A stretch of DNA of 64,000 bases from a bacterium (GCA_026709025.1 JAPOTT010000011.1:128-64127); one strand, 5' to 3'; shown: positions 31,086-64,000, counted from the stretch's first letter. Program-made: numbers and translations. The notes: a model not told the origin generated them from the letters alone.

Positions 31086-31178
31086 GGAGGTGTCTGAGTA
31101 CCTGGTGGGCTCCCCCGCCTTCAAAGCGGGTGGGACGGGCGACCCCCGTCCGGCGGGTTCGATTCCCGTCCACCTCCG
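31086..31178 (+). tRNA. selC: tRNA-Sec (UCA)
   Basis: 93 nt; anticodon arm CCCGC-CTTCAAA-GCGGG; long variable arm GGACGGG-CGACC-CCCGTCC; G discriminator; selA and selB are in the window. Confidence 0.95.
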
Positions 31179-31198
31179 CGCACCTAGCTGTTGGGGTG

Positions 31199-47187: not shown

Positions 47188-48492
47188 TTGAGGGCTGTGA
47201 GACCTCCGTCTGTAGATGCCCTAGCACGATCTCTAGTCGATACTGGTCTGCCTCACCCCTTGTTGGTGGCCGCTGCCCGCAAAGCCATCGCCGAAGCTGC
47301 TTCAGACCACGTATCGGATCACCACATAGTAGACAGAGCTCGCCAGCACGCTTTTGTGTCAAAAAGGGCTATGTTGCAGCCGGTTATCAATGCCACCGGG
47401 GTTTTGCTGCACACCAACTTGGGTCGTGCCCCTTTAGCTACAACCACCGAAGCGGTATACACCAACCTAGAGCTAGATCTGGTTTCCGGAGAGCGTGGTT
47501 CTCGTCATGCCCATGCAGCATCTTTGCTAGCGCAGCTTTGTGGGGCTGAAGATGCCATCGTGGTGAACAACTGTGCTGGTGCGGTGATGCTTGTGTTGGC
47601 CGCTTTGGCCAACGGGCGCGGCGCGGCGGTTTCTAGGGGCGAGCTAGTTGAAATCGGTGGAGGTTTTCGAGTACCAGAGGTGATGATGCAATCTGGAGCA
47701 CACCTAGTGGAGGTGGGCACCACCAACCGCACACGCCTAGGTGATTTCACCACAGCACTCAACAACCCCACCCACAACATTGCCCTAGCGCTGAAGGTAC
47801 ACCAATCTAACTACCGTATCGTGGGCTTTACCCAACAAGTTTCGGTTGCTGAGATGGCCTCTTTGGAGGTACCAGTAGTGGCAGACATAGGTTCGGGCCT
47901 AATAGATGCAGCTTGCCCGTGGTTAGAAAACGGGCCTCCAATATGGCTAGAGGGCGAACCCGCCGCCCGTCAGTGTTTAGATGCTGGAGCAGCTTTGGTT
48001 ACCTTCTCTGGCGACAAGTTATTTGGAGGCCCCCAAGCAGGCATTATCGCTGGTCAGGCTCACCTAGTTCGCCAATGCGCGCAACACCCCTTAGCACGGG
48101 CTCTTCGTCCGGGCGGCCTGGTGCTAGGTGCGGTGCAACAGGTGGCTTTGGCTTATCTCAACCGCAACCCTCAAGCCATTGAGTTTTGGCGAATGGCTTG
48201 CATTAGCCCGGCGCATTTACAAGAGCGAGCCGAGGCCATTGCCAACCGCGCCAACCACACTACAGCTATTCGGCCAACCCCAACCACCGCCATCACAGGC
48301 GGAGGCACCTTGCCTGGGGTGGAGATACCTTCGTTTGGTCTTGTGCTAGATGGCAATCATGCAGCCGCTTTGCGTGCCCACAGCCCCCCTGTAGTGGCTC
48401 ATGTGCGAGACGATTGCACCTGGTTAGATCTACGCACGGTGGCCCCTTCGCAAGATGAGCCGTTAACCCAAGCTCTGCGAGCGATGGCTTGA
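47188..48492 (+). CDS. selA: L-seryl-tRNA(Sec) selenium transferase
   Basis: VINATGVLLHTNLGRAP, VNNCAGA, SRGELVEIGGGFR, VGTTNRT, FSGDKLFGGPQAG (PLP Lys). Confidence 0.96.
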   Translation: MRAVRPPSVDALARSLVDTGLPHPLLVAAARKAIAEAASDHVSDHHIVDRARQHAFVSKRAMLQPVINATGVLLHTNLGRAPLATTTEAVYTNLELDLVSGERGSRHAHAASLLAQLCGAEDAIVVNNCAGAVMLVLAALANGRGAAVSRGELVEIGGGFRVPEVMMQSGAHLVEVGTTNRTRLGDFTTALNNPTHNIALALKVHQSNYRIVGFTQQVSVAEMASLEVPVVADIGSGLIDAACPWLENGPPIWLEGEPAARQCLDAGAALVTFSGDKLFGGPQAGIIAGQAHLVRQCAQHPLARALRPGGLVLGAVQQVALAYLNRNPQAIEFWRMACISPAHLQERAEAIANRANHTTAIRPTPTTAITGGGTLPGVEIPSFGLVLDGNHAAALRAHSPPVVAHVRDDCTWLDLRTVAPSQDEPLTQALRAMA

Positions 48493-50219
48493 GCCTTACT
48501 ATCGCCACGGCTGGCCATGTGGATCATGGTAAGTCCACTCTGGTTGAAGCTCTAACCGGCAGCCATCCCGACCGCCTCGCCGCAGAGGCGGCCCGCGGTC
48601 TTACCATCGATTTGGGTTTTGGTGCAGCGCAGCTACCCTCAGGGAGAACCCTGTCTATTGTTGACGTGCCTGGGCATGAGCGTTTCATTCGCAACATGTT
48701 GGCCGGGGTAGGAGCCATAGATGCCTGTTTGTTTGTTGTGGCCGCCAACGAGGGTTGGATGCCCCAATCCGAAGAACACTTGCGTATCTTGGAACTTCTC
48801 GGCGTATCGCAAGGTGTGATAGCCCTCACTAAGGTAGCCATCTGCGAACCCGATATCGCCCACCTAGCACATCTAGAGGTTACAGAAAAAGCAGCCGGAA
48901 CCTTCCTAGCTGATGCTCCTGTTGTGCCTACCGATGTACCTACTGGTATAGGTCTCCAAGAGCTACGCAGCGAGTTAGACCGTCTTTTAGATCGCACTCC
49001 AGTAGCAGCAAACAACCAGCGTCCTCGCCTGTGGGTAGATAGATCTTTTGCCGCTAAGGGTGCAGGCACTGTGGTAACCGGCACTCTAGGCGGCGGGCCT
49101 CTGCACATTGGCGAAGAACTGCTGTTACATCCCAACAACCACATGGTGCGTGTGCGGGCCTTACAAACTCACCACCAGGAGTACGCCAGCATTGCGCCCG
49201 GCAATAGGGTAGCGGTGAACCTAACCGGCATTGGGTATCAACAGATAAATCGTGGCCATGTGCTTGTCAAACCTGCCCAATGGCACCTTACGAATTGCTT
49301 CGATGCCTCTGTTGCCATACTTAGCACCCTCAACCACCAGGTTTCGCGCCGCGGGGCACACACCATATACATCGGCACCAGCGAGTTGCCTGCCAAGATG
49401 CGTATTTTGGGCCAACAAACCATTGAACCGGCCGACACTGGCTTGGTTCGTCTGTATCTACAGCGCAAACTTCCGTTGCTGCCCGGCGACCGCTTCGTGC
49501 TACGAGAGAGCGGAAGAGCCGAAACCATTGGCGGTGGCACAGTGCTAGACGTGGCACCTGTGTTGGCAGCTTCAAAAGCAAACCCCGATGGGTCAATCCA
49601 CAGGCTTATTGCCGAACGAGGCTGGGTGGAAGCAAAAGAACTAGCCCTGCTAACCGGCCAAAACCACCAACCTACTGTAGGGCGCTGGCTTGTGAGTCCA
49701 TCTTTGCTGGAACAAACAAAGATCAAGTTGCGCCAGGCTGTGGCTGATGCTGGCAGCGTGGGTCTAGACATCGCTACTTGTAGCGACAAAGAACGCGCTG
49801 TGCTGGGGTTGCTTGCAGAGGTTGTTATATCCAACGGTCGGGCCCGCAATAGCGCTCAGCCCGACCCTTTTCAAGATCACCCCTACATCGTTGCTTTGCA
49901 AAGTGCGTTGTTTGCTCCGCCTAGCCCTGTAGATGTTGGTGTGGAGGTGCTTGAAGCGCGTGAGCTAACCAAACGAGGTTTGGCGATAGAGCAAAACGGC
50001 ATCTTTTTTGCCGCTGAAGCAGTTGTAGAAGCCCAAGGCGTGCTCACAGAGATGCTGCACAACAAACCCGAGGGCATAACCGTAGCGGAGATACGCCAGC
50101 GTTTGGGCACCAGCCGCAAGTACGCCCTAGCGCTTTTGGCCTATCTAGATGCCAACGGTATTACCCGCCGCCGCGAAGACGTTCGCATCGCTGGACCTCG
50201 TCTTACAGGCCCTGCTTGA
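48489..50219 (+). CDS. selB: Selenocysteine-specific elongation factor
   Basis: TAGHVDHGKST, GLTIDLGF, DVPGHERF, VAANEGWMPQSEEH; C-terminal SRKYALALLAYLD...RREDVR winged helix. Confidence 0.96.
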   Translation: MSLTIATAGHVDHGKSTLVEALTGSHPDRLAAEAARGLTIDLGFGAAQLPSGRTLSIVDVPGHERFIRNMLAGVGAIDACLFVVAANEGWMPQSEEHLRILELLGVSQGVIALTKVAICEPDIAHLAHLEVTEKAAGTFLADAPVVPTDVPTGIGLQELRSELDRLLDRTPVAANNQRPRLWVDRSFAAKGAGTVVTGTLGGGPLHIGEELLLHPNNHMVRVRALQTHHQEYASIAPGNRVAVNLTGIGYQQINRGHVLVKPAQWHLTNCFDASVAILSTLNHQVSRRGAHTIYIGTSELPAKMRILGQQTIEPADTGLVRLYLQRKLPLLPGDRFVLRESGRAETIGGGTVLDVAPVLAASKANPDGSIHRLIAERGWVEAKELALLTGQNHQPTVGRWLVSPSLLEQTKIKLRQAVADAGSVGLDIATCSDKERAVLGLLAEVVISNGRARNSAQPDPFQDHPYIVALQSALFAPPSPVDVGVEVLEARELTKRGLAIEQNGIFFAAEAVVEAQGVLTEMLHNKPEGITVAEIRQRLGTSRKYALALLAYLDANGITRRREDVRIAGPRLTGPA

Positions 50220-52942: not shown

Positions 52943-53016
<74 letters not shown>

Positions 53017-53072
53017 CCCGCAGTGCTTGTCTCGTGTTTGTCCTTAGAGGGCATACGGGTATCCTGTCGGCT

Positions 53073-55703
53073 ATGAGGTTGCGCTCCATTTGTTTGAGTG
53101 TCGGTGTCGCTGTAGCACTGTTAGCACCCACCTTTGTCGTTCCTGTGGCGTTGGCTCAATCCAACAACGATCCTCCCGACGCTGATGCCGGGTTAGATTA
53201 TGCCGTTACCCCAGGCCAAGACACCACCGGCAAGCTAGATGCATCTAACACCTTCGACACCGAAGATAGAGCCAACGAACTTGCCTATTCTTGGAAACCC
53301 ATCACCGATGCATATAGCTGGATTGAAGTAATACCGAGGGGCAGCCCTCGAGGTCGCACCGCAGAATTTGATGTGCCCCCTCTCAAACTCGTCAACCAAC
53401 GAGGCGTTTATCACATAGATTTTGAACTCACCGTTGTAGACACAGACGGAGCCTCTAGCACCGATATAATCCGCGTAACCCTCAACCAGCCTCCCCAAGC
53501 TCAGATAGCCTTGTCGGCTAAGCTCCCGCATCCCAATCCCACAGATGCCAACCAAAACGGTGTGATAGATGACGAAGAGAAGTACACGGTTGACGCTGTT
53601 ATAGATGCCCCACTTGAAGGTGGCAATGATGCCAACGATTGGGACATCCAAGAAGGCGCCCGTCTCACCCTCACCGGTTCATCAAGCACCTCGGGTGAGG
53701 AAAACCCAAAGCTCACCTACACTTGGGAGCGTCGTGCGGTCCGTCCCAACAACTTACCTGTTTTCGCCAACAGCCCTGCTCGCACACGGCGGCAGTCCAT
53801 TACCATTGATCTGCCAGACACCCTTCAAAATAATGCCACAGCTTATGTGCAGTATCGTCTGGTTGTTACCAATCAAAGCGGTGTAACAGATAGCGCGCTC
53901 GTTAACATCACCGTGCGCGATCAACCCTCAGCTCCTACCGTGCAGGTGTCGCTGCGTAGCGCTAATCAGCCAGCTCAGGTTGCCTATCAAGTTGATCCAA
54001 ACCAGCTAAACCAGCCAGCCCGCTTTGTGGTAGCTCCGGGCCAAGCGGTACAGCTCATCGCCACAGCCGAAGACAAAGACGGCACCCAAACTCGCCGCTT
54101 GTCTCACCTCTGGGCTGCTGGTGATACAGGCCAAGCAGCAGCTATCCAACTAACGCAGGTTGCTCCCACACGCAGAGGCGCTACCTCTCGCGCCACCTAC
54201 ACTGCCCCCGCGCAGCTTCCAGAAGATACCAGTGCCGTTACCCAAACCCTCACCGTCACCGTTACAGACGACACCGAACGAACGGCCCAAACCACAGTTA
54301 CCTTCATAACCGCCAACAACCAAGCCCCTCAAGCTGTAGCTCCAGCCAACATAATCAGCGAGGACGGTGCTCAAGGTGGTGATGATCAATCAGGCACAGT
54401 GCAGGTTCGTGGCCTTGGTATCGACTCTGCAGACGACACCCTCACCTACCAGTGGCGCTTTGTGGATGCTCAAGGCAACCTTCTAGACCCTACAGATGCA
54501 CCAGTTACCCTTGTTGATCCAACCCAACCAACCACCTCATTTGATGTTCCAGAACTTCGCGGCGGTAACTTGCTAGTGCATCTTCAACTAGTCGTTACCG
54601 ATTCGTGGGGTGTGTTTGATACCGACACTGTTACCATCACCATTTTTGGCCGCAACGATGCTCCTACTGCCAGCGCTGGTGCTAATCAAACCGTTGTAAC
54701 CCGAACTCAGGTAACTTTAGATGCCACAGCCTCCACAGACCCAGACCCAAACGAACAACTTAACTACTCTTGGGCCTACACCGGTATTACCCTCAATCCC
54801 CCAGCACGTGTCACTCCGCTAACTCCCCAAGACAGCAACGATCTCAGAGCCTTTTGGCCAACTGCCAATAACGAATATCCTACAGTGCTCACTTCTGCGC
54901 GCTCGGTAAAGCCCACCTTCTTAGCTCCCAAATTCACCCACCTGCGAAGCGTGCGCCTCACCTTCACGCTTACCGTTACAGATTCAGCTAACAGCACTAG
55001 CCAAGACGAAGTTCACATCACTGTGGTAGGCCGTTTCTTCTCTGGTGAAATTGACCACCCAGATTTTTGCCGTAACAAGAGCCTCGGCGGTCAGCGCACC
55101 TACCCTCACGACAGCACTAAAGATGGTGTGGCTGATGTGTGTTCTTTACGATCTACCCGTCGCGAGGCTGTGGTTCGTCAGCAAGCTCTTACTACTTTGG
55201 CTAGTATCAATCGTGGCGACTTTGTGAGACAGGTCAACCAAGCCTGCAGAGGTATCGGCGACGAGGACTATACCCAGTATGGTGATAAACCTGAGGATCT
55301 AAAGAAGGATGTGTGCTCTACCGGCCAGATAGCCGCACCGCCAGAACCCCCCAATCCAGAAGCCAACCCAAAGTTTTATTCTGGCCCTGTTATCACCGGT
55401 CCCAACTTCTGTGTCAACTTCAGTTTGGGTGGTGCGCTTACCTATCCCCATGATGGCGATGGTGATGGCATCGCCGAGGTCTGTGCCCTTCCATATACCC
55501 GTCGTGAGGCTGTGGCTCGTCAGATAGCCCTAGATACCTTTGCATCGCATTCTCAGTTTCGAGGTCTGCTCGCTGTGTCTTGTCAGGCAAGCGCAGGTAC
55601 ACAGTTCGGAGGTGACAAACCCGAAGATCTGAAAACGGATGTTTGTGCCACAATCGCCTCAACCACTTCCCAAGAACGCACAGGCACCGCTCTCCCGTCT
55701 TAG
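53073..55703 (+). CDS. Large secreted protein 1: PKD/Ig-like beta-sandwich repeats plus two C-terminal 4-Cys DxDGDG domains
   Basis: Sec signal MRLRSICLSVGVAVALL..ALA; NDAPTASAGANQTV..VTLDATASTDPD, LTYQW, FTLTVTD repeats; TATCCT -10 box 7 nt before the ATG. Confidence 0.8.
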   Translation: MRLRSICLSVGVAVALLAPTFVVPVALAQSNNDPPDADAGLDYAVTPGQDTTGKLDASNTFDTEDRANELAYSWKPITDAYSWIEVIPRGSPRGRTAEFDVPPLKLVNQRGVYHIDFELTVVDTDGASSTDIIRVTLNQPPQAQIALSAKLPHPNPTDANQNGVIDDEEKYTVDAVIDAPLEGGNDANDWDIQEGARLTLTGSSSTSGEENPKLTYTWERRAVRPNNLPVFANSPARTRRQSITIDLPDTLQNNATAYVQYRLVVTNQSGVTDSALVNITVRDQPSAPTVQVSLRSANQPAQVAYQVDPNQLNQPARFVVAPGQAVQLIATAEDKDGTQTRRLSHLWAAGDTGQAAAIQLTQVAPTRRGATSRATYTAPAQLPEDTSAVTQTLTVTVTDDTERTAQTTVTFITANNQAPQAVAPANIISEDGAQGGDDQSGTVQVRGLGIDSADDTLTYQWRFVDAQGNLLDPTDAPVTLVDPTQPTTSFDVPELRGGNLLVHLQLVVTDSWGVFDTDTVTITIFGRNDAPTASAGANQTVVTRTQVTLDATASTDPDPNEQLNYSWAYTGITLNPPARVTPLTPQDSNDLRAFWPTANNEYPTVLTSARSVKPTFLAPKFTHLRSVRLTFTLTVTDSANSTSQDEVHITVVGRFFSGEIDHPDFCRNKSLGGQRTYPHDSTKDGVADVCSLRSTRREAVVRQQALTTLASINRGDFVRQVNQACRGIGDEDYTQYGDKPEDLKKDVCSTGQIAAPPEPPNPEANPKFYSGPVITGPNFCVNFSLGGALTYPHDGDGDGIAEVCALPYTRREAVARQIALDTFASHSQFRGLLAVSCQASAGTQFGGDKPEDLKTDVCATIASTTSQERTGTALPS

Positions 55704-55736
55704 GCACCTCCACTAGAGCTTTCCTAAAATTGTCTC

Positions 55737-55765
55737 TTGCTAAACCTGTTTTGGTCGGCTAGGTT
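55737..55765 (+). promoter_or_regulatory. Sigma-70-type promoter of the 55819 gene (duplicated at 56173-56201)
   Basis: TTGCTA-17 nt-TAGGTT; copy 2 TTGCCA-17 nt-TAGGTT; SD AAGGGGA before each ATG. Confidence 0.55.
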
Positions 55766-55818
55766 GAGTTCATGCTTCCCCATTTAGTTTCATTCACTAG
55801 CATTAAGGGGAATCTCTT

Positions 55819-56106
55819 ATGGAATCAGTTTTAAGTTCGTCCATCGTGGGCGCATTCTTAGCCGTCCTGATCGGCTATGTGATCTACACAGTGCGCGACA
55901 AGTTCGACAAGGTGGATGCTCGCTTCGACAAGCTGGAAGCCATTCTCTTGAACCATGCAGAGCGCATATCTCTTAACCATGCGGAGCGGTTAGCTCGCAT
56001 TGAAGCGAAGCTAGATATCGTGCCTGCGGTTGCCCCCGTCACTCCGCCCACCGAGTTCGTCGACCCCCCCGAACCAGCCGCACTAACCCAAACCACCTCA
56101 AGCTAA
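55819..56106 (+). CDS. Small N-anchored coiled-coil protein, short variant (95 aa)
   Basis: TM IVGAFLAVLIGYVIY, DKFDKVDARFDKLE, HAERLARIEAKL, Pro/Thr tail. Confidence 0.8.
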   Translation: MESVLSSSIVGAFLAVLIGYVIYTVRDKFDKVDARFDKLEAILLNHAERISLNHAERLARIEAKLDIVPAVAPVTPPTEFVDPPEPAALTQTTSS

Positions 56107-56254
56107 GCCCTTCTCAGCGCAGGACGAGGTTCTTGCCTTGCACCTCCACTAGAGCTTTCCTAAAATTGTCTCTTGCCAAACCTATTTTGGTCGGCTAGGT
56201 TGAGTTCATGCTTCCCCATTTAGTTTCATTCACTAGCACTAAGGGGAATCTCTT

Positions 56255-56833
56255 ATGGAATCAGTTTTAAGTTCGTCCATCGTGGGCGCATTCTTAGCCG
56301 TCCTGATCGGCTATGTGATCTACACAGTGCGCGACAAGTTCGACAAGGTGGATGCTCGCTTCGACAAGCTGGAAGCCATTCTCTTGAACCATGCAGAGCG
56401 CATATCTCGCATTGAGACCATTCTTGTTAGCCAAGAGAACCAGTTAGCAGCGATTGATGCCCGCTTCCAAGCGATTGATGTCCGCTTCCAAGCGATTGAT
56501 GTCCGCTTCCAAGCGATTGATGCCCACTTCCAAGCGATTGATGCCCGTTTTCAGGAGGTCAATGCTCATCTCGATAACATTGAGGCGACGCTCGCCGACC
56601 ATGGTGAGCGCCTTATTCGTATTGAGGTCACCCTGACGAATCACGATGCCCGCTTCGATACAATCGATGTCCGTTTGAATAAGGTGGAAGTCATTCTCTT
56701 TAATCATGCGGAGCGGTTAGCTCGCATTGAAGCGAAGCTAAATATCGTGCCTGTGGTTACTCCTGTCACCCCGCCCACCGAGTTCGTCGATCCCCCCGAA
56801 CCAGCCGCACTAACCCAAACCACCTCAAGCTAA
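56255..56833 (+). CDS. Small N-anchored coiled-coil protein, long variant (192 aa)
   Basis: Same N- and C-termini as 55819; extra 97 aa including the AID(A/V)RFQ heptad x5. Confidence 0.85.
   Translation: MESVLSSSIVGAFLAVLIGYVIYTVRDKFDKVDARFDKLEAILLNHAERISRIETILVSQENQLAAIDARFQAIDVRFQAIDVRFQAIDAHFQAIDARFQEVNAHLDNIEATLADHGERLIRIEVTLTNHDARFDTIDVRLNKVEVILFNHAERLARIEAKLNIVPVVTPVTPPTEFVDPPEPAALTQTTSS
56450..56554 (+). repeat. 21-bp coding tandem repeat x5
   Basis: gcgattgatg(c/t)ccgcttccaa units, each encoding exactly one heptad. Confidence 0.95.
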
Positions 56834-57284
56834 GCCCTTCTCACTAGCTCACTAGCCCCCCCTAGCGCCACACAACCCCGGCACCGGACAAACCCAGCCG
56901 TGCTGACCCGTCGTTAGACATCACGTCAACTTGCGCTTGTGTGTCTGCAGCTACGCACCTCTCATAACAAACATCTGCAACGGGTCGGTGGATGAGCACA
57001 TGGCCCGATCCTCAAGCTCACCTGGATCCTCAAGCTCGCACCACCCAAACCTGCAACCTCCCCAAACTGCCCTACCGCTAGTCCCATACATGTTGCCGCA
57101 CTACACCCTTGCTGCCTTCCAATGTGAGGGCTACAGATGCTAGTTTCAGTACCCTTGAGGACATCTTCCGTATGGCTACTCACACCCCTGCGGTGCCCCC
57201 TCAAAATTGGCCCCTAAATTTCTTCTCAAAAAAATTGTCTTACTGTGTTTGAAATTGGTGCCGCAACCTGCAAGACTTACCGAA

Positions 57285-57354
57285 GCACTGAGTCAGGGTC
57301 GGCTCAGTGTCACTAAGCGGGCTGTTCGGCCCACTAGCACCACATGGTGCTAGT
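57285..57354 (+). promoter_or_regulatory. Three adjacent hairpins upstream of large secreted protein 2
   Basis: gcactgagtc/ggctcagtgt (10 bp, 2 GU), gggct/ggccc, actagcacc/ggtgctagt (9 bp perfect). Confidence 0.45.
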
Positions 57355-57396
57355 CATCTGATATAGTTTCAACATCCAGGCCCGTCTGATAGAAAG

Positions 57397-60300
57397 TTGT
57401 CCATGATTATGCTTCACTCGGTTTGGTCCGGCGAAGAGAGTGCTAACGCTCGTCGGAAAGTCATGACCATGTTGGCAGTGCTGGCTTTGCTAGCAAGTGT
57501 CCTGATGTGGGCCACCCCCCAAGCAGCGGCGCAGAGTGGTAATGATGTGGTAGCTGTTACGGCTACTGTTAGTAGGTCATCAGATGACGCTAGTGCTACT
57601 GATGAGGTGACTGTTGAAGCGGGTCAGCGGGTTTATCTTGATGGAACGGCGACTCTTATTAACGGTGATGATCCTCCAGCTACTTCTTATAAGTGGGAGA
57701 TAGCCGATGGCCCTTATGATTGGTTGACTATTAATCAGGACGCAGAGACGTCCACAGATAATGATAGTGATATAGAAGCTAGTTTTTTGTTGCCTAATCA
57801 GAATTATGTTGATGGTGTAACTGGTAGTGACGATCAGAAGTATAAGATTCAGGTTACTTTGACTGCGACGCGTAATGGTTCTTCAGAGAGTGATACTGTG
57901 ACTATCACGATTGCTCGTCCGCCTGTTGCTGATATTACGGTTTTTGCTGGTTTGCCTGATTCGGCTTTTGCAGATGATGTGAATGCAACTTTTGAAGAAA
58001 TCTTTGGTGAGGATGCGATTATTGATGGGCCTGGTGAGAACGGTAACCGTGATAATGAGTGGGATATTCGTGAGAAGGCTTATCTCCGGTTGGATGGTTC
58101 TGGGAGTACTGTGCCTGGTGGGAAAGTAGATCGTTATCGGTGGGAACGGCTTTCGCCACCTAACCTGCCTACCGGTGTTACGCTTACTTCTGCTCCTATC
58201 ATTTCTGGTCCTTTAGCAGATACCGACATTAATCCTATTTTTGTGGCTGGTAATAACGATTTTACTGCTGAGGCTGCTTCTGGTACTTACACTATTCTTC
58301 CTGATCTAAATGCTGGCGAAATTTCTGTTAAGCGGTTGACTTTGATTTATCAGTTGTCTGTGCAGTCTGGAGGGGGTACGGCTAAGACTTCTCGGGTTCG
58401 TATTGTGGTGCATGATAGTCCTGCTGAAGCAGATCCGATTGGTGTGAGTGTTAGTTTGGCTGCGGGTAGTCAGGGAAGCGCTCCTCAGTCTACTTTGTCT
58501 GCTTTGAATGGTGGGGTTGAGAATCAGTATCTTGTGAGTGCTGGTTCGGTAGTTCAGTTCACTGTGACTGGTTTGTTGAATGAGAAACTTACTTGGACGG
58601 GTGCTACTGCGAGAGGTGATGTTGATCTATTGCCTCCTAATAATCCTGATGGTACTGATGATAGTGGTACTGCTACTCGTAGGGTTCCTTCTGGTGTGAC
58701 TGCTGGTACTACTTATGATGTGACTGTCACTGATGGTGATCGCACTACGACGGTTCAGTTGTTGGTTGGTGCTAATCAGGTGCCTACTGCTAGTCCGATT
58801 GCTGGTGTTAGTCTTGCCGAAGGTCAGACTTTGGATAGGATTTCTGCTGGTCAGTTTGATTTAGCTGTGTTGAGTGTGAATGATGGCGTGCAGTCAAATA
58901 GTAAGCCGATCACTTTGCGTGGTGTGGGTAACGATCCTGATGGTGGCGCGATAATTCAGGCTTGGACGTTGCGTCATGTGCCTGCTGACAGTGAGTCTGC
59001 TGTGTTGGGTGCGATTGATACTTGGCTTGACCCTGATGGTAATAATAAGTCAACAGCAGGAAATGGTGATGTAGCTGGAGTGGTTGGCCCTGTTCTGCTT
59101 CAGTTGTCAGCTGATGATCCAGCTGATCCTCTAGTTGAGTTGATTAATCCGATTGGTGATGGTGAGGTGTCTTTTGAGGTGCCCCAGGTTAGAGCAGATA
59201 CTGGGGTGTTCCTTACCTATTCGGTGGTTGATTCGGCGAATGTTCTTGCAGCTAGGGTGTTGTACCTGCGTATTGAAGCTGATGATGATAAGCCGGTGGC
59301 TAATGCTGGTACTGGTCAGCAGGTTGCTTCTGGTGCGTTTGTTCGTCTAGATGGTTCTGGTAGTGCTGATCCTGATCCTGGTGACAGTATTGCTGGTAGC
59401 CATAGTTGGACTTATGTTGGTGCCAATATGAGTCCTCTGCCTGATGCACGTAGGGCTTTGTCTGATGCGGAGATTGGCCAGTTAGACGGTTGGGTGCTCC
59501 GCCAGGTTACGACTGATAATCCTTTACCTGATGGGGATACTCGTAAAACCTTTAAGGATTCCGAAGGCAATGATTATGTTTACATTGTTGATGCTAAGGG
59601 TGATTTAGTTGCTAGCGAAGTTCCTGAAGGTGGGCATACAGGTAAATTGATGGAATCAGGTTCTGCTTACCCGTATTTCACTGCGCCTAAGTTAACTGGT
59701 TTCAATAATCTTGGTCTTACGTTCCATTTGACTGTTACTGATGGGCAAGGAACCACTACCGGGGATGATCCTACTGCTGATGATGATAAGTCAGATCCGT
59801 CTCCTGTGACTATTACTGTGGCTCGGGTTGCTAGTAATGAGTTTTATAGTGGTGTGATTACTGGCCCTGGTTTTTGTACTAATCTGGCGTTTGGTGGGCC
59901 GATGTTGTTTGCGCATGATGGTGATGGTGATGGTGTTGCGGAGACTTGTTCTTTGAACACTACTCGTCGTGCGACTATTGCCCGTCAGAATGCTTTGGAG
60001 GCTATCGCTGCGTTGAATCCAACTGCTTTGGATAATGCGATAGACGCTGAGTGTGGGAAACTTGTTGCTGGTAATGCTAGTTATGAGGGTGATGAGCCTG
60101 CTGATTTAGCTGGTGATGCTTGCGCTGATGCTAGTAACCCGGTTGCGGTTATTCCTGTGTTGAGTGGTGCGACTGCGTATGGGCCTACGGTTAATGGTCC
60201 TGCGTTTTGTTCTAACTTTAGCCTTGGCGGGCCGATCATGTATCCGTATGATTCTGATGGTGATGGTGTGTACGATATTTGTTCGTTGAACAGTACTCGC

Positions 60301-60714
60301 CGTGAAGCAGTAGCACGCCAAACAGCTCTAGCCATCTCCTTTGAGGTGTCGTTTAGTGCTGGTGATCAGACTCGTCACGATGAGTTGGTTGAGTTGCGTG
60401 AGCTTCAAGAACTAGGTGATGATCGAACTGACGATCAGGACACCCGGCATATTGATCTTATCACGAAGTATGAAGGCGGTTTTACCGATAGCACTGACGG
60501 TGCGTTAGATAGTGATGAGATCATTGCTTTGTCAGCAGAGATTGATAGTCTTGCTGCTGCTAAGTCTGCTGCTGCTCGTTATGCTAATGCTTTGGCTGCG
60601 GCGTGTCGTGCGTTGGCTGGTCAAGTCTTTGAGGGTGATAAGGCTGCTGATCTTGCAACAGATGAGTGTGTGCGGCCTACTACTTCTGGTATTGCGCTTC
60701 CGTCTGGTAGCTAA
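57397..60714 (+). CDS. Large secreted protein 2 (paralog of 53073)
   Basis: Signal peptide RRKVMTMLAVLALLASVLMWATPQAAA; KPVANAGTGQQVASGAFVRLDGSGSADPD PKD motif; two C-terminal 4-Cys domains; ends GIALPSGS. Confidence 0.85.
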   Translation: MSMIMLHSVWSGEESANARRKVMTMLAVLALLASVLMWATPQAAAQSGNDVVAVTATVSRSSDDASATDEVTVEAGQRVYLDGTATLINGDDPPATSYKWEIADGPYDWLTINQDAETSTDNDSDIEASFLLPNQNYVDGVTGSDDQKYKIQVTLTATRNGSSESDTVTITIARPPVADITVFAGLPDSAFADDVNATFEEIFGEDAIIDGPGENGNRDNEWDIREKAYLRLDGSGSTVPGGKVDRYRWERLSPPNLPTGVTLTSAPIISGPLADTDINPIFVAGNNDFTAEAASGTYTILPDLNAGEISVKRLTLIYQLSVQSGGGTAKTSRVRIVVHDSPAEADPIGVSVSLAAGSQGSAPQSTLSALNGGVENQYLVSAGSVVQFTVTGLLNEKLTWTGATARGDVDLLPPNNPDGTDDSGTATRRVPSGVTAGTTYDVTVTDGDRTTTVQLLVGANQVPTASPIAGVSLAEGQTLDRISAGQFDLAVLSVNDGVQSNSKPITLRGVGNDPDGGAIIQAWTLRHVPADSESAVLGAIDTWLDPDGNNKSTAGNGDVAGVVGPVLLQLSADDPADPLVELINPIGDGEVSFEVPQVRADTGVFLTYSVVDSANVLAARVLYLRIEADDDKPVANAGTGQQVASGAFVRLDGSGSADPDPGDSIAGSHSWTYVGANMSPLPDARRALSDAEIGQLDGWVLRQVTTDNPLPDGDTRKTFKDSEGNDYVYIVDAKGDLVASEVPEGGHTGKLMESGSAYPYFTAPKLTGFNNLGLTFHLTVTDGQGTTTGDDPTADDDKSDPSPVTITVARVASNEFYSGVITGPGFCTNLAFGGPMLFAHDGDGDGVAETCSLNTTRRATIARQNALEAIAALNPTALDNAIDAECGKLVAGNASYEGDEPADLAGDACADASNPVAVIPVLSGATAYGPTVNGPAFCSNFSLGGPIMYPYDSDGDGVYDICSLNSTRREAVARQTALAISFEVSFSAGDQTRHDELVELRELQELGDDRTDDQDTRHIDLITKYEGGFTDSTDGALDSDEIIALSAEIDSLAAAKSAAARYANALAAACRALAGQVFEGDKAADLATDECVRPTTSGIALPSGS
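59806..60046. repeat. 241-bp near-identical inverted block (partner 62743-62983) within the large paralogs
   Basis: Manual alignment found one synonymous mismatch (TTGAAT/TTAAAT). Confidence 0.85.
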
Positions 60715-60757
60715 CTTTTAGAGAGTTTCAGGTTTAGCCTGGACAACCCAAACCACC

Positions 60758-60792
60758 GGGGCCCGGCCCTCCCACAAGGGGGGCCGGGCCCC
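60758..60792 (+). terminator. GC-rich hairpin after large protein 2
   Basis: ggggcccggccctcc-cacaa-ggggggccgggcccc (15-bp stem), followed within about 15 nt by a long T-rich tract. Confidence 0.75.
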
Positions 60793-60875
60793 ACCGCGTT
60801 AACCGTTATTTCTTCTTTTAGTGTTCTTCTGCTTAGTTATTTGTTTTTATTATTTTTCAATATTTTCAACAAATT

Positions 60876-60908
60876 AGGGTTGCAAACCCTCCACGCACTT
60901 TGTATTGT
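60876..60908 (+). promoter_or_regulatory. Sigma-70 promoter of the small gene, with an AT-rich UP element and a palindrome over the -35 box (mirror copy 61947-61979)
   Basis: TTGCAA-17 nt-TATTGT, ATG 6 nt downstream (leaderless); AGGGTT-gca-AACCCT overlaps the -35 box. Confidence 0.6.
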
Positions 60909-60914
60909 TATCTC

Positions 60915-61349
60915 ATGACCGGTTTTGAACTAGCCCAGTTCATCGCAATCATGCTGTCGTTGATGGGCATTGTCTTACACCAACAAAGAAGTAACTGGTA
61001 CCAACAACGAAGCATCGACCAGCTCCGCTCCGATATGAACGCTGGTTTCGCTGAAGCCCGCGCCGACCGCCAAGCCATCCGCAACGAGATAAACCAACGC
61101 TTAGCCGAGGCCCGTAGAGAAACCACACAAGGGTTTTCCGATGCTCAGGCTGCATTAGACAAAGCCCGCACCGAAAGCCGCGATGGGCTAGATACCCTAC
61201 ACTCTGACACTAACAAGAGTTTCCAACAGGTGTGGGCCGAACTATACAAAATAGTTCAACGCTTAGTCCGCATAGAAAGCCGCCTAAAAATCGAACCACC
61301 CCCAGAAGACTCCACTCCACCCCCCGCTACTACTCCACCAACGCCATAA
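60915..61349 (+). CDS. Small N-anchored coiled-coil protein (144 aa)
   Basis: TM FIAIMLSLMGIVL, helical repeats, RLVRIESRLKI, Pro-rich tail. Confidence 0.8.
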   Translation: MTGFELAQFIAIMLSLMGIVLHQQRSNWYQQRSIDQLRSDMNAGFAEARADRQAIRNEINQRLAEARRETTQGFSDAQAALDKARTESRDGLDTLHSDTNKSFQQVWAELYKIVQRLVRIESRLKIEPPPEDSTPPPATTPPTP

Positions 61350-61475
61350 CCTCACCGATAGAATACGAACACTCCTAATCTAAAAAATTCACTCTCCACA
61401 AAATCACACTTTGGCCTACAGACCTTGCTCAGGTGAGTGTTGAGTTTGATACAAGTTGAGGGGTTAGGTTATGGT

Positions 61476-61940
61476 TTAGGATTGGTTTGATCCTTCGGAG
61501 GGTGGTCCAATTTTTAGGCGACTTTCAATGCGAATAAGGCGTTGAGCAACCTTGGATAGTGCAGCCCACACCTGTCGGAACCCCCGATTTGTTTCAACAC
61601 GATGCACTTCCATCGTATTACGGATTTCCGCAAAACAATTATTAGTTTCTTTACGAGCCTCATCGAAGCGCTGGTTAGTATCAGAGCGTAGGGTATCTAG
61701 CCCATCGCGACTTTCAGTGCGGGCTTTGTCTAAAGCAGCCTGGGCATTAGAAAAGCGTTGGTTTATCTCGTTGCGGATGGCTTGGCGGTCGGCGCGGGCT
61801 TCAGCGAAACCAGCGTTCATATCGGAGCGGAGCTGGTCGATGCTTCGTTGTTGGTACCAGTTACTTCTTTGTTGGTGTAAGACAATGCCCATCAACGACA
61901 GCATGATTGCGATGAACTGGGCTAGTTCAAAACCGGTCAT
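61476..61940 (-). CDS. Small N-anchored coiled-coil protein (154 aa), inverted paralog of 60915
   Basis: First 62 codons identical to 60915; RLIRIESRLKI. Confidence 0.8.
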   Translation of the reverse strand: MTGFELAQFIAIMLSLMGIVLHQQRSNWYQQRSIDQLRSDMNAGFAEARADRQAIRNEINQRFSNAQAALDKARTESRDGLDTLRSDTNQRFDEARKETNNCFAEIRNTMEVHRVETNRGFRQVWAALSKVAQRLIRIESRLKIGPPSEGSNQS

Positions 61941-62281
61941 GAGATAACAATACAAAGTGCGTGGAGGGTTTGCAACCCTAATTTGTTGAAAATATTGAAA
62001 AATAATAAAAACAAATAACTAAGCAGAAGAACACTAAAAGAAGAAATAACGGTTAACGCGGTGGGGCCCGGCCCCCCTTGTGGGAGGGCCGGGCCCCGGT
62101 GGTTTGGGTTGTCCAGGCTAAACCTGAAACTCTCTAAAAGTTAGCTACCAGACGGAAGCGCAATACCAGAAGTAGTAGGCCGCACACACTCATCTGTTGC
62201 AAGATCAGCAGCCTTATCACCCTCAAAGACTTGACCAGCCAACGCACGACACGCCGCAGCCAAAGCATTAGCATAACGAGC
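61753..62281. repeat. Right arm of the 529-bp inverted repeat
   Basis: Reverse complement of 60574-61102. Confidence 0.93.
62063..62097 (-). terminator. GC-rich hairpin after large protein 3 (copy of 60758-60792)
   Basis: Same 15-bp stem on the minus strand. Confidence 0.75.
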
Positions 62282-64000
62282 CGCATTAGCTGCAGCTATC
62301 GCTTCAAGCTCGCTAATCTCTTTAGCAACAGCAGCAGTCAGGTCGTCGCCAGTCAAAGCATTCCCATCACCATCATTGATAATAACTGGAGTGTCGTCAT
62401 GAGCCTTCAAATCAGCTAGCCTACCCATCTCTCTTGGTGTCAAAGCATCCTCAAAGGTGGCTAGAGCTGCTTGGCGTGCTACTGCTTCACGGCGAGTGCT
62501 GTTCAACGAACAAATATCGTACACACCATCACCATCAGAATCATGCGGATACATGATCGACCCACCAAGGCTCCGGTTAGTGCAAAACGCAGGACCAGTA
62601 ACCACAGGCCCATACTGAGTAGCACCACTCAACACAGGAATAACCGCAACCGGGTTACTAGCATCATCGCAAGCATCATTAGCTAAATCAACAGGCTCAT
62701 CACCATAACTAGCATTAGCAGCAACAAGGCGCTTGCACTCATCGTCTATCGCATTATCCAAAGCAGTTGGATTTAACGCAGCGATAGCCTCCAAAGCATT
62801 CTGACGGGCAATAGTCGCACGACGAGTAGTGTTCAAAGAACAAGTCTCCGCAACACCATCACCATCACCATCATGCGCAAACAACATCGGCCCACCAAAC
62901 GCCAGATTAGTACAAAAACCAGGGCCAGTAATCACACCACTATAAAACTCATTACTAGCAACCCGAGCCACAGTAATAGTCACATCAGCAGTAGCAAATT
63001 CTGCGACCCCATCATCAGACTCACCATCTTTCAACGCTACACCATTAATCTCAGAAGCACTGCTATCAGCACTATCTGTCACAGTGAGACGGAACTTGAG
63101 ACTAATGTTGTTAAAACTAGTCAACTTAGGAGCAGTAAAATATGGATAACGAGAAGCTACACCCTTCAAATGAGCTGGTGTGTTATCTTTGTTGTCTAGC
63201 AAATCACCAGCAGCGTTAACTATCCACACATAATGCTTACCAGCAGAATCTTGGAATCTCCCTGCCGCTGGATCATTATCTGTAGCCTCCCGCAGCACCC
63301 AACCATTCAGCTCCTTGATCTCCGCATCAGACAAAGCCCTACGAGCATCAGGAAGCGGACTCATAGTAGCACCAACATAAATCCAACTATGACTAGCAAT
63401 ACTATCATCAGGATCAGGATCAGCGCTAGCAGAACCATTCAGGCGGACACGCGAACCAGAAGCAACTTGCTGATTAGCACCAGCATTAGCTACCGGCTTA
63501 TCATCCTCGGCAGTGACATGAATGTACACAGGCTGTGCGGCAACAACATGAGCTGAATCCACAACAGAGTACAAAAGAATAAAACCAGTGTTCTCTCTTA
63601 CTTCTGGCACCTCAAAAGAAACCTCACCATCACCAAGCGGGTTAATAAGTGTCACCAAAGGATCAGACGGATCATCAAGCTCCCCTAAGCGATTATAAAA
63701 ACCAGCTATATCGCCAGCTTTAGTAAGATCAGGAGTATCACCTACTAAATCTTCAACATCTGAATTCAAATTGTTTGCATCATCACCAGCAAACTGCCGC
63801 AAAGTCCAAGCTTGAATTATCGCGCCACCATCAGGATCATTGCCTACACCACGCAAAGTGATTAAAGCGCCACCTTTTTGTTTTCCATCACGGACACTGA
63901 AAACAGGAATGCCTGGAATACTTGATGCAGAGTCAAGATTACTATCCCCAATGCTAGCAGAAATCCCACCAGCAGTAGGCGCTTGATTAGTGCCAACTAA
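62141..64000 (-). CDS. Large secreted protein 3 (paralog of 57397), 5'-truncated by the window edge
   Basis: Frame is open to 64000 (LVGTNQAPTAGG...ITLRGVGNDPDGGAIIQAWTLR); same PKD motif, two 4-Cys domains and identical C-terminus. Confidence 0.88.
   Translation of the reverse strand, partial: LVGTNQAPTAGGISASIGDSNLDSASSIPGIPVFSVRDGKQKGGALITLRGVGNDPDGGAIIQAWTLRQFAGDDANNLNSDVEDLVGDTPDLTKAGDIAGFYNRLGELDDPSDPLVTLINPLGDGEVSFEVPEVRENTGFILLYSVVDSAHVVAAQPVYIHVTAEDDKPVANAGANQQVASGSRVRLNGSASADPDPDDSIASHSWIYVGATMSPLPDARRALSDAEIKELNGWVLREATDNDPAAGRFQDSAGKHYVWIVNAAGDLLDNKDNTPAHLKGVASRYPYFTAPKLTSFNNISLKFRLTVTDSADSSASEINGVALKDGESDDGVAEFATADVTITVARVASNEFYSGVITGPGFCTNLAFGGPMLFAHDGDGDGVAETCSLNTTRRATIARQNALEAIAALNPTALDNAIDDECKRLVAANASYGDEPVDLANDACDDASNPVAVIPVLSGATQYGPVVTGPAFCTNRSLGGSIMYPHDSDGDGVYDICSLNSTRREAVARQAALATFEDALTPREMGRLADLKAHDDTPVIINDGDGNALTGDDLTAAVAKEISELEAIAAANAARYANALAAACRALAGQVFEGDKAADLATDECVRPTTSGIALPSGS

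What the first reader, a model, noticed from the sequence alone, without database searches (positions are those of the whole stretch)
53073..64000. Candidate undescribed surface system: repeated modules of a large secreted PKD/4-Cys protein followed by small anchored coiled-coil genes, next to tRNA-Pro
Seen: three paralogous large secreted proteins (53073+, 57397+, 62141-). Each is immediately followed on the same strand by one or two small N-anchored coiled-coil genes, so the pairing recurs three times with two different small-gene subtypes. The small genes carry their own promoters, so they need not be co-transcribed. Both gene types show localized sequence or length variation. I recognise no named system with this architecture. 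Inference: a diversifying cell-surface apparatus for host, matrix or phage interaction, in which a trimeric membrane stalk may display or space out the large protein, which has no obvious anchor of its own.
Basis: partly seen in the sequence, partly recalled or inferred. Interest (0 to 1): 0.85.

Follow-up and report, generated by a model that had tools for sequence, protein, structure and literature searches.

The report
Sponge-symbiont surface proteins with small coiled-coil neighbours
A sponge-symbiont bacterium carries a conserved cluster of large secreted adhesin-like proteins, each ending in an undescribed cysteine-rich domain pair, and small membrane-anchored coiled-coil genes sit beside them far more often than chance; the pairing is real, but the small proteins probably face the cytoplasm and are unlikely to be display stalks.

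Summary
Three paralogous secreted proteins (L1, L2, L3) are each followed on the same strand by small N-anchored coiled-coil genes (S1/S2, S3, S4), next to tRNA-Pro. The genome is a Candidatus Poriferisocius (sponge-symbiotic Acidimicrobiia). The large proteins are arrays of Ig-like/PKD domains ending in a tandem ~95-aa 4-Cys module. That module gives a confident model with no Pfam, NCBIfam or PDB match. It is restricted to the genus and always sits as a pair at a protein end. It is also fused to FN3, LRR, Calx-beta, SpoIID and a Ser/Thr kinase ectodomain, so it is probably the proteins' own wall or envelope anchor. The small family was likewise found only in the genus among the genomes searched. 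It has a conserved C-terminal end, HGERLARIExKLDIDPPAEAA, and variable 7- or 11-residue repeats. In 14 complete genomes, 10 of 26 strong small loci lie within 1 kb of a 4-Cys domain (0.13 expected). However, no small protein has K/R before the membrane helix and all have 2-6 after it, which predicts a cytoplasmic coiled coil. Several species have many large genes and no small gene. So this is a real, undescribed gene association, but the display-stalk model is disfavoured.

The parts
52943..53018 (+). tRNA-Pro (CGG), left border of the cluster
   Evidence: ARAGORN. No direct repeat of its 3' end of 15 nt or more exists elsewhere in the genome.
53073..55703 (+). L1: secreted 876-aa protein. It has a signal peptide (MRLRSICLSVGVAVALLAPTFVVPVALA|QS), K319L-like PKD/REJ repeats and a C-terminal tandem 4-Cys module.
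   Evidence: ORF. Pfam PF22352 scores 78.5 bits against a cut-off of 27. Full-length orthologs (42-69% identity) occur in 9 other species.
55020..55700 (+). Tandem 4-Cys / DxDGDG module of L1 (two ~95-aa copies), the conserved terminal module of the family
55819..56106 (+). S1: 95-aa small protein with an N-terminal membrane helix, a short coiled coil, the RLARIE motif and a Pro-rich tail
   Evidence: It equals S2 minus its central repeats.
56255..56833 (+). S2: 192-aa paralog of S1 with a 21-bp (heptad) array at 56449-56564
   Evidence: D1, D2, D4. The array length differs between sponge metagenomes.
57463..60714 (+). L2: secreted 1083-aa protein. About 790 aa are Ig-like beta-sandwich domains, followed by the tandem 4-Cys module (59830-60714), which has a helical insert in its second copy.
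   Evidence: The AF2 model is beta-rich over residues 30-790. Foldseek matches contactin, cadherin and DSCAM ectodomains and the SbsB, Sap and EA1 S-layer proteins.
60915..61349 (+). S3: 144-aa small membrane-anchored coiled coil of the second subtype (11-residue repeats, RLVRIE motif, Pro-rich tail)
61476..61940 (-). S4: 154-aa paralog of S3, downstream of L3 on the minus strand
62141..64000 (-). L3: paralog of L2 that runs off the window and the contig. Its first codons lie at the end of contig C14.
   Evidence: There is a 55-nt overlap between the end of C14 and the end of C13.
60570..61113 (.). Left arm of a 544-nt, 99% identical inverted repeat (right arm 61742-62285). It spans the 3' end of L2/L3, the intergenic region and the 5' part of S3/S4.
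   Evidence: the repeat finder I1.

Best explanation
This is the local copy of a conserved Candidatus Poriferisocius locus, with the core order L1-type, then L2-type, then small gene.

The large proteins are Sec-exported. They consist of strings of Ig-like/PKD beta-sandwich domains and probably bind host or matrix ligands (inferred). Each ends in a tandem, disulfide-stabilised module that probably binds Ca2+ (4 Cys plus a DxDGDG loop per copy). This module appears to be a new fold. I infer that it is the proteins' own targeting or anchoring domain for the cell wall or envelope. The inference rests on three facts: it is always a terminal pair, it is the conserved part of otherwise unrelated exoproteins, and it also occurs on a SpoIID-type peptidoglycan enzyme and on the outer part of a Ser/Thr kinase.

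The small genes encode bitopic membrane proteins. They have a 1-13-residue uncharged or acidic N-tail and one membrane helix followed by a basic flank. A variable-length coiled coil follows (7- or 11-residue repeats) and ends in an R-h-x-x-h-E motif. Most species then have the near-invariant end KLDIDPPAEAA. By the positive-inside rule the coiled coil lies in the cytoplasm.

The two families are genetically linked: they are adjacent, often co-oriented and duplicated together. I therefore infer a functional coupling at the membrane, for example in organising, localising or buffering export of these very large exoproteins. I do not infer a physical display stalk. The adjacency, families, architecture and variation are shown here. 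The anchor role, the topology and the nature of the coupling are inferred.
For: Identity and conservation:
- Genus assignment comes from record titles.
- L1 and L2 have full-length orthologs in the same tandem order in G012, G017, G020, G022, G023, G046 and other species.

The 4-Cys module:
- It is present in 25 of 25 genus genomes and in 0 of 16 other genera of the order.
- It is always a pair, either at the C-terminus or directly after the signal peptide.
- Its fusion partners are PKD, FN3, Calx-beta, LRR, Glug, RCC1 and DUF459, SpoIID in this genome, and a kinase ectodomain.
- The model is confident and has no structural or sequence neighbour.

The large-protein body:
- It is made of Ig-like arrays resembling adhesion ectodomains and SLH-anchored S-layer proteins.

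The small family:
- At E<=0.001 it is found in 15 of 15 selected genus genomes, against only 2 marginal hits in 16 other genera.
- The charge pattern around the membrane helix is uniform.
- 41 of 46 members carry R-h-x-x-h-E near the end, and 27 of 46 end in P[PS]AE[AT]A.

Linkage:
- 10 of 26 strong small loci lie within 1 kb of a 4-Cys domain (0.13 expected), and 19 of 26 within 10 kb (0.65 expected).
- 15 of 39 small genes inside clusters directly follow a large gene on the same strand.
- In G055 a short 4-Cys protein plus a small gene is duplicated as a unit.
Against: - No experiment or transcript data exists: no RNA run holds the locus.
- The topology rests only on the positive-inside rule. 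L2 and L3 themselves have signal peptides without K/R, so this organism tolerates unusual N-regions.
- The Pro/Thr-rich tails of S1-S4 look like extracellular linkers.
- Wall binding by the 4-Cys module is inferred from domain context alone.
- About half of the small-family loci lie away from any large gene (for example C31:36963-37415).
- Some small genes are convergent with the large gene rather than co-oriented.
- 11 of 40 genus genomes lack the small family.
- Coupling could therefore be loose or absent.
Confidence: 0.5

Rival explanations
1. Two-component display apparatus. The small protein is an extracellular, N-anchored trimeric stalk. Its conserved tip (RLARIE-KLDIDPPAEAA) docks the tandem 4-Cys module, and repeat-number changes tune the distance at which the adhesin is held.
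For: - Adjacency is highly non-random and often co-oriented.
- In both families the most conserved element is a terminal module next to variable parts.
- Pairs are duplicated as units.
- Stalk length varies within populations.
- The R-h-x-x-h-E motif is present.
- Both families show the same genus-limited distribution among the genomes searched.
Against: - All intact members inspected have 0 K/R before the helix and 2-6 K/R after it, up to 'RNRRKEKGDR'. This predicts a cytoplasmic coiled coil.
- Of the 11 genus genomes that lack the small family, five were also searched for 4-Cys genes and hold 6-10.
- Many 4-Cys proteins, such as C3 and C23 in this genome, have no small neighbour.
- About half of the small genes are unlinked.
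- The window's own S1-S4 lack the DPPAEAA tip.
Confidence: 0.2
2. There is no functional link. Both are fast-evolving, lineage-specific accessory families that accumulate and co-amplify in the same recombination-prone variable regions, so the adjacency reflects shared duplication history.
For: - The G012 ortholog cluster is interrupted by IS607/TnpB-like elements, VapBC-like, Fic-like, RtcB-like and AbiE-like genes.
- A 99% identical inverted repeat shows ongoing gene conversion.
- GC falls to 0.47-0.51 in the cluster against 0.54-0.57 elsewhere.
- Orientation is inconsistent, with convergent pairs.
- Presence is not obligatory.
Against: - The order 'large gene, then small gene' with gaps of 66-700 nt persists between species whose large proteins are only 37-50% identical.
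- Enrichment within 1 kb is about 75-fold, and unrelated accessory genes would rarely reach this.
Confidence: 0.25
3. The cluster is the cargo of an integrative mobile island or prophage remnant inserted at tRNA-Pro.
For: - tRNA-Pro sits at the left border.
- A tyrosine integrase and a nucleotidyltransferase lie just beyond L3, across the contig joint.
- GC is lower in the cluster.
- The small proteins hit PHROG coiled-coil families of unknown function.
Against: - No repeat of the tRNA 3' end was found.
- No phage structural or replication genes are present.
- The L1-L2-small core is conserved across the genus, and in G012 it is syntenic on the selB side.
- No tRNA lies near the clusters of eight loci from six other species.
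Confidence: 0.05

Closest known systems
SLH-anchored S-layer and S-layer-associated proteins of Gram-positive bacteria (SbsB, Sap, EA1)
   Same: A terminal repeated wall-targeting module is joined to a string of Ig-like beta-sandwich domains. The same targeting module is shared by structural proteins and wall enzymes. The L2 model matches SbsB, Sap and EA1 chains by fold.
   Different: No SLH domain is present. The terminal module here is a 4-Cys/DxDGDG pair with no fold match. Lattice formation and wall binding are untested.
Eukaryote-like adhesion proteins (FN3, cadherin, LRR, Calx-beta) of sponge-symbiotic Acidimicrobiia (PMC11706023)
   Same: Same host lineage and the same repeat classes. 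The fold resembles contactin, cadherin and DSCAM ectodomains.
   Different: That paper's text has no occurrence of 'PKD', 'coiled' or 'cysteine', so it does not appear to describe the terminal 4-Cys module or the small coiled-coil neighbours.
Excalibur / EF-hand-like extracellular Ca2+-binding loops (DxDxDG...C)
   Same: Each module copy carries D-x-D-G-D-G-[VI]-A-[DE]-x-C. From memory, this resembles the Excalibur motif.
   Different: Pfam Excalibur does not match at E<=1. The module is about 95 aa with 4 Cys and a helical second half.
Small bitopic or tail-anchored coiled-coil membrane proteins with variable repeats (XhlA, Mycoplasma DUF16, Borrelia Bdr; PspB as an N-out/C-in example)
   Same: These are short membrane-anchored coiled coils. 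S2 gives weak profile hits to DUF7310, DUF16 and XhlA. Repeat-number variation and multigene families next to surface-protein genes recall Bdr and DUF16 (from memory).
   Different: All hits fall below the curated cut-offs. XhlA and Bdr are anchored at the C-terminus, whereas this family is anchored at the N-terminus. The HGERLARIExKLDIDPPAEAA end is specific to this family.
Braun's lipoprotein Lpp as an envelope spacer
   Same: An N-terminally anchored trimeric coiled coil whose length sets a distance. This is the analogy behind the stalk model.
   Different: There is no lipobox, the organism is a monoderm, and the predicted topology is cytoplasmic.

Membership tests
K319L-like PKD domain proteins (PF22352) | Score above Pfam's gathering threshold (27 bits) | tested here: met
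   L1 scores 78.5, L2 37.8 and L3 29.7 bits.
Excalibur Ca-binding domain | Match to the Pfam Excalibur model | tested here: not met
   It is not among the Pfam hits at E<=1 for L1-L3. Only the short DxDGDG..C loop resembles it.
SLH-anchored S-layer proteins | SLH domains at a terminus | tested here: not met
   No SLH hit in Pfam or NCBIfam.
SLH-anchored S-layer proteins | Body built of consecutive Ig-like beta-sandwich domains | tested here: met
   The AF2 model is beta-rich over residues 30-790. Foldseek matches SbsB, Sap and EA1 with E around 1e-10.
Sortase-anchored (LPXTG) surface proteins | C-terminal LPXTG followed by a hydrophobic helix and a basic tail | tested here: not met
   L1 ends ...GTALPS and L2/L3 end ...GIALPSGS, with no helix after.
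XhlA (PF10779) / DUF16 (PF01519) / DUF7310 (PF23991) | Score above the curated cut-off | tested here: not met
   S2 scores 15.9 against 34.7, 24.7 against 40, and 31.2 against 40 bits. S1, S3 and S4 give no hit.
Trimeric coiled coils with the R-h-x-x-h-E trigger motif | Presence of the motif | tested here: met
   S1 has RLARIE, S2 has five copies, S3 has RLVRIE and S4 has RLIRIE. 41 of 46 family members carry it in the last 35 residues.
Trimeric coiled coils with the R-h-x-x-h-E trigger motif | Trimeric state | not testable with these tools
   No multimer prediction or experiment was available.
tRNA-integrated genomic island | tRNA border, integrase, direct repeat of the tRNA 3' end, and absence from relatives | tested here: inconclusive
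   The tRNA, the integrase and the low GC are present. No repeat of 15 nt or more was found, and the core locus is conserved across the genus.
Known anti-phage defence systems (PADLOC) | Specific match of either family to a defence-protein model | tested here: not met
   Only weak coiled-coil hits (E>=4e-5) to the tails of JetC, ZorA and LmuB. None for the 4-Cys module.

The most novel reading that the evidence does not exclude
The two families form a new kind of envelope apparatus in a monoderm. A membrane-anchored trimeric coiled coil of tunable length carries a conserved tip (RLARIE-KLDIDPPAEAA). The tip docks a new Ca2+/disulfide tandem domain and so sets how far interchangeable adhesins (PKD, FN3, LRR) are held from the cell. 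Repeat slippage and gene conversion would diversify both the reach and the ligand specificity inside the sponge host.
Probability: 0.15. Interest if true: 0.8.

Novelty: new variant of a known kind. Interest (0 to 1): 0.55.

Why it matters
Sponge symbionts are uncultured, and how they attach to or are recognised by the host is largely inferred from 'eukaryote-like' repeat proteins. This work defines two things:
- the conserved terminal module shared by a whole set of such exoproteins in one symbiont genus, which is a confident model with no known fold and a candidate new cell-envelope anchor;
- a second, equally lineage-restricted family of variable-length membrane coiled coils that is genetically tied to them.

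Both are concrete, expressible targets for structure, wall-binding, topology and interaction tests. Those tests could turn a genomic correlation into a mechanism for surface display in symbiotic Actinomycetota.

Tried and rejected
- A word-based homolog search with S3 found only a 97% twin and S4.
- A pattern-based scan of genome contigs with the L2 C-terminus found nothing.
- A Pfam scan of a 60-aa fragment of the integrase was a wasted call; it was repeated with the full sequence.
- PADLOC gave only generic coiled-coil hits. PHROGs gave repeat-region hits to families of unknown function (best phrog_12015, E 2.3e-12 for S2) plus weaker coiled-coil hits.
- The PDB profile search with the small family gave only weak hits to coiled-coil-rich proteins such as haemagglutinin HA2.
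- I looked for att repeats of tRNA-Pro and found none.
- I tested whether the unlinked small gene on C31 (between the ORFs I read as ligA and ruvC) is a conserved 'core' copy. It is not syntenic in four other species.
- I looked for RNA-seq support. No RNA run holds the locus.
- The promoter and terminator scan was uninformative.
- The full-length L2 model predicted the 4-Cys part poorly (pLDDT 30-50), so only the separate tandem-module model was used for that region.
- I considered a prepilin-like reading of the small proteins' N-termini and rejected it. There is no G|F-x-x-x-E pattern at a fixed position and no basic leader.


Full report
**1. Observation**

- L1: 53073-55703 (+), 876 aa.
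- S1: 55819-56106 (+), 95 aa.
- S2: 56255-56833 (+), 192 aa.
- L2: 57397-60714 (+). The likely start is the ATG at 57463, which gives 1083 aa.
- S3: 60900/60915-61349 (+).
- S4: 61476-61940 (-).
- L3: 62141 to beyond 64000 (-).
- tRNA-Pro(CGG): 52943-53018.

L1 and L2 are 29% identical over about 996 aa. L2 and L3 are 56% identical over 1130 aa.

L3 runs off the contig. The last 55 nt of contig C14 overlap the end of contig C13, and a roughly 108-nt stretch is identical at the 5' ends of L2 and L3. C14 therefore joins here. Beyond L3 lie a nucleotidyltransferase gene and a tyrosine-integrase gene. An in-frame TAG upstream forces L3 to start at MTMLAV..., so L2 and L3 have signal peptides without K/R.

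L2-S3 and L3-S4 form an inverted duplication. A 544-nt inverted repeat, 99% identical, covers the large gene's 3' end, the spacer and the small gene's 5' part. The window therefore offers two independent pairs.

S1 and S2 form a tandem duplication that includes the 115-nt upstream region. S2 carries a 21-bp array.

GC falls from about 0.55 to 0.47-0.51 across the cluster.

**2. Organism and distribution**

A neighbouring gene, selB, finds its closest relatives in MAGs named Candidatus Poriferisocius and in sponge-derived Acidimicrobiia. The locus itself is present in sponge metagenomes from several studies.

**3. The large proteins**

Pfam finds only K319L-like PKD and REJ repeats. The full-length L2 model is beta-rich over residues 30-790. 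By fold it resembles multi-Ig or cadherin adhesion ectodomains and the SbsB, Sap and EA1 S-layer proteins.

The C-terminal roughly 220 residues hold two copies of a ~95-aa unit. Each copy has four near-invariant Cys and a D-x-D-G-D-G-[VI]-A-[DE]-x-C loop. This part gave no Pfam or NCBIfam match.

A profile of this pair found only 139 representative clusters among 1.84 billion proteins. It occurs in 25 of 25 genus genomes, at 1-58 copies each, and in 0 of 16 other genera of the order.

The module is always a pair. It sits either at the C-terminus (PKD proteins) or directly after the signal peptide (FN3 proteins).

Its fusion partners are:
- PKD, FN3, Calx-beta, LRR, Glug, RCC1 and DUF459;
- a SpoIID-type peptidoglycan enzyme in this genome, at C3:48664-51792;
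- a divergent copy in the extracellular part of a Ser/Thr kinase.

A conserved, promiscuous, strictly terminal pair that is shared by adhesin-like arrays, a wall enzyme and a kinase sensor behaves like a wall or envelope-targeting module, as SLH, LysM and PASTA domains do. This is an inference.

**4. The small proteins**

No curated family matches. XhlA, DUF16 and DUF7310 all score below their cut-offs. PADLOC and PDB give only generic coiled-coil hits. PHROGs gives stronger hits over S2's repeat region, but only to families of unknown function (best phrog_12015, E 2.3e-12).

Sequences collected from 14 species show a clear family:
- a 1-13-residue N-tail with no K/R, often starting MN.., ME.. 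or MD..;
- one hydrophobic helix;
- 2-6 K/R immediately after the helix, for example AVRNRRKEKGDR;
- variable 7- or 11-residue repeats;
- a conserved end. In most species this is HGERLARIExKLDIDPPAEAA-COOH. 27 of 46 members end in P[PS]AE[AT]A, and 41 of 46 have R-h-x-x-h-E in the last 35 residues.

The window's S1-S4 keep the RLARIE or RLVRIE motif but have longer Pro-rich tails.

At E<=0.001 the family is found in 15 of 15 selected genus genomes, against two marginal hits in 16 other genera.

By the positive-inside rule this charge pattern predicts N-out/C-in, so the coiled coil would be cytoplasmic.

**5. Is the pairing more than chance?**

In 14 complete genomes, 26 small loci scored E<=1e-10. 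Of these, 10 lie within 1 kb of a 4-Cys domain (0.13 expected from random placement). Nineteen lie within 10 kb (0.65 expected).

In clusters from 13 species, 15 of 39 small genes directly follow a large gene on the same strand with a gap of 700 nt or less. Six more follow another small gene in tandem.

L1 has full-length orthologs in nine species, and each is followed by an L2-type or related large gene. Small genes follow the L2-type gene in G012, G017, G020, G023 and G046. In G055 a short 4-Cys protein plus a small gene is duplicated as a unit.

Several results cut against an obligatory system:
- About half of the small loci are unlinked.
- Some pairs are convergent rather than co-oriented.
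- The C3 and C23 4-Cys proteins in this genome have no small neighbour.
- 11 of 40 genus genomes lack the small family at E<=1e-8, and five of them were also searched for 4-Cys genes and hold 6-10.

**6. Variation**

Contigs from other sponge metagenomes show one 21-nt unit fewer in S2. One contig has a single S1/S2 copy and an array 63 nt shorter.

The ortholog cluster in G012 carries 3-5 copies of the S1/S2 type and an S3-type gene expanded to 261 aa. It also holds IS607/TnpB-like and toxin-antitoxin genes, and genes I read as Fic, RtcB and AbiE-like.

**7. Interpretation**

The association is real and both families are undescribed. The stalk-display model conflicts with three results: the predicted topology, the non-obligatory co-occurrence, and the presence of a plausible anchor on the large proteins themselves.

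My best reading (0.5) has three parts:
- The large proteins are wall- or envelope-anchored adhesin-like exoproteins with a new terminal module.
- The small proteins are cytoplasm-facing membrane coiled coils of tunable length.
- The two are functionally coupled at the membrane in a way not yet defined.

The rivals are the true display stalk (0.2), co-amplification without a functional link (0.25), and mobile-island cargo (0.05). No transcript data could be found, and the promoter scan was uninformative.

**8. Novelty and score**

The large proteins belong to a known kind, the eukaryote-like adhesins of sponge symbionts (PMC11706023). They carry a terminal domain that appears to be new. The small family and the pairing are new. 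I rate this a new variant of a known kind, with interest 0.55.

Noticed in passing
window 60570-61113 and 61742-62285: A 544-nt, 99% identical inverted repeat spans the L2/L3 3' ends and the S3/S4 5' parts. Further mosaic blocks show 92-96% identity. This suggests recent gene conversion. One metagenome contig shows an opposite-strand joint inside the repeat.
   Followed up: partly
G000 contig C14:61499-63398, which adjoins window 64000+: A tyrosine integrase (Phage_integrase, Phage_int_M) and a Pol-beta-type nucleotidyltransferase lie just beyond L3. They sit between the cluster and what I read as the men (menaquinone) genes. No att repeat of tRNA-Pro was found.
   Followed up: partly
G000 contig C3:48664-51792 (-): A 1042-aa secreted protein carries a SpoIID domain, three internal repeats of about 140 aa and the same C-terminal tandem 4-Cys module. 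It lies beside genes I read as dTDP-sugar biosynthesis genes.
   Followed up: partly
P0210 (metagenome protein, 788 aa): A Ser/Thr protein kinase has one membrane helix and a divergent tandem 4-Cys-like ectodomain that lacks the DxDGDG loop. This occupies the position PASTA domains hold in PknB-type kinases.
   Followed up: no
G007 (complete genome of the same genus): 58 matches to the 4-Cys module, mostly in open frames of about 1750-2400 aa spread around the chromosome. This is a large expansion compared with 5-14 matches in most species.
   Followed up: no
L013/L014 (G012:1524000-1556000): The orthologous cluster is interrupted by two copies of an IS607-like element (serine recombinase plus a TnpB-like 545-575-aa ORF), a PIN/VapBC-like pair, and genes I read as a Fic-domain protein, RtcB, a DNA methylase and an AbiEii/AbiEi-like pair.
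   Followed up: no
window 31086-31179 and 47188-50219: tRNA-Sec, selA and selB lie in the window, so the organism uses selenocysteine. selB-side synteny with G012 places L1 in a vertically inherited context.
   Followed up: partly
L1, L2, L3 and orthologs, extreme C-terminus: A short conserved end, G-[TIV]-A-L-P-S(-G-S), follows the second 4-Cys copy in several family members, with no hydrophobic helix after it. It may be a processing or recognition tag.
   Followed up: no
window 56255-56833 (S2): S2 and a G017 homolog match phage families of unknown function (phrog_12015 at E 2e-12, phrog_6701, phrog_9415) over their repeat regions.
   Followed up: no
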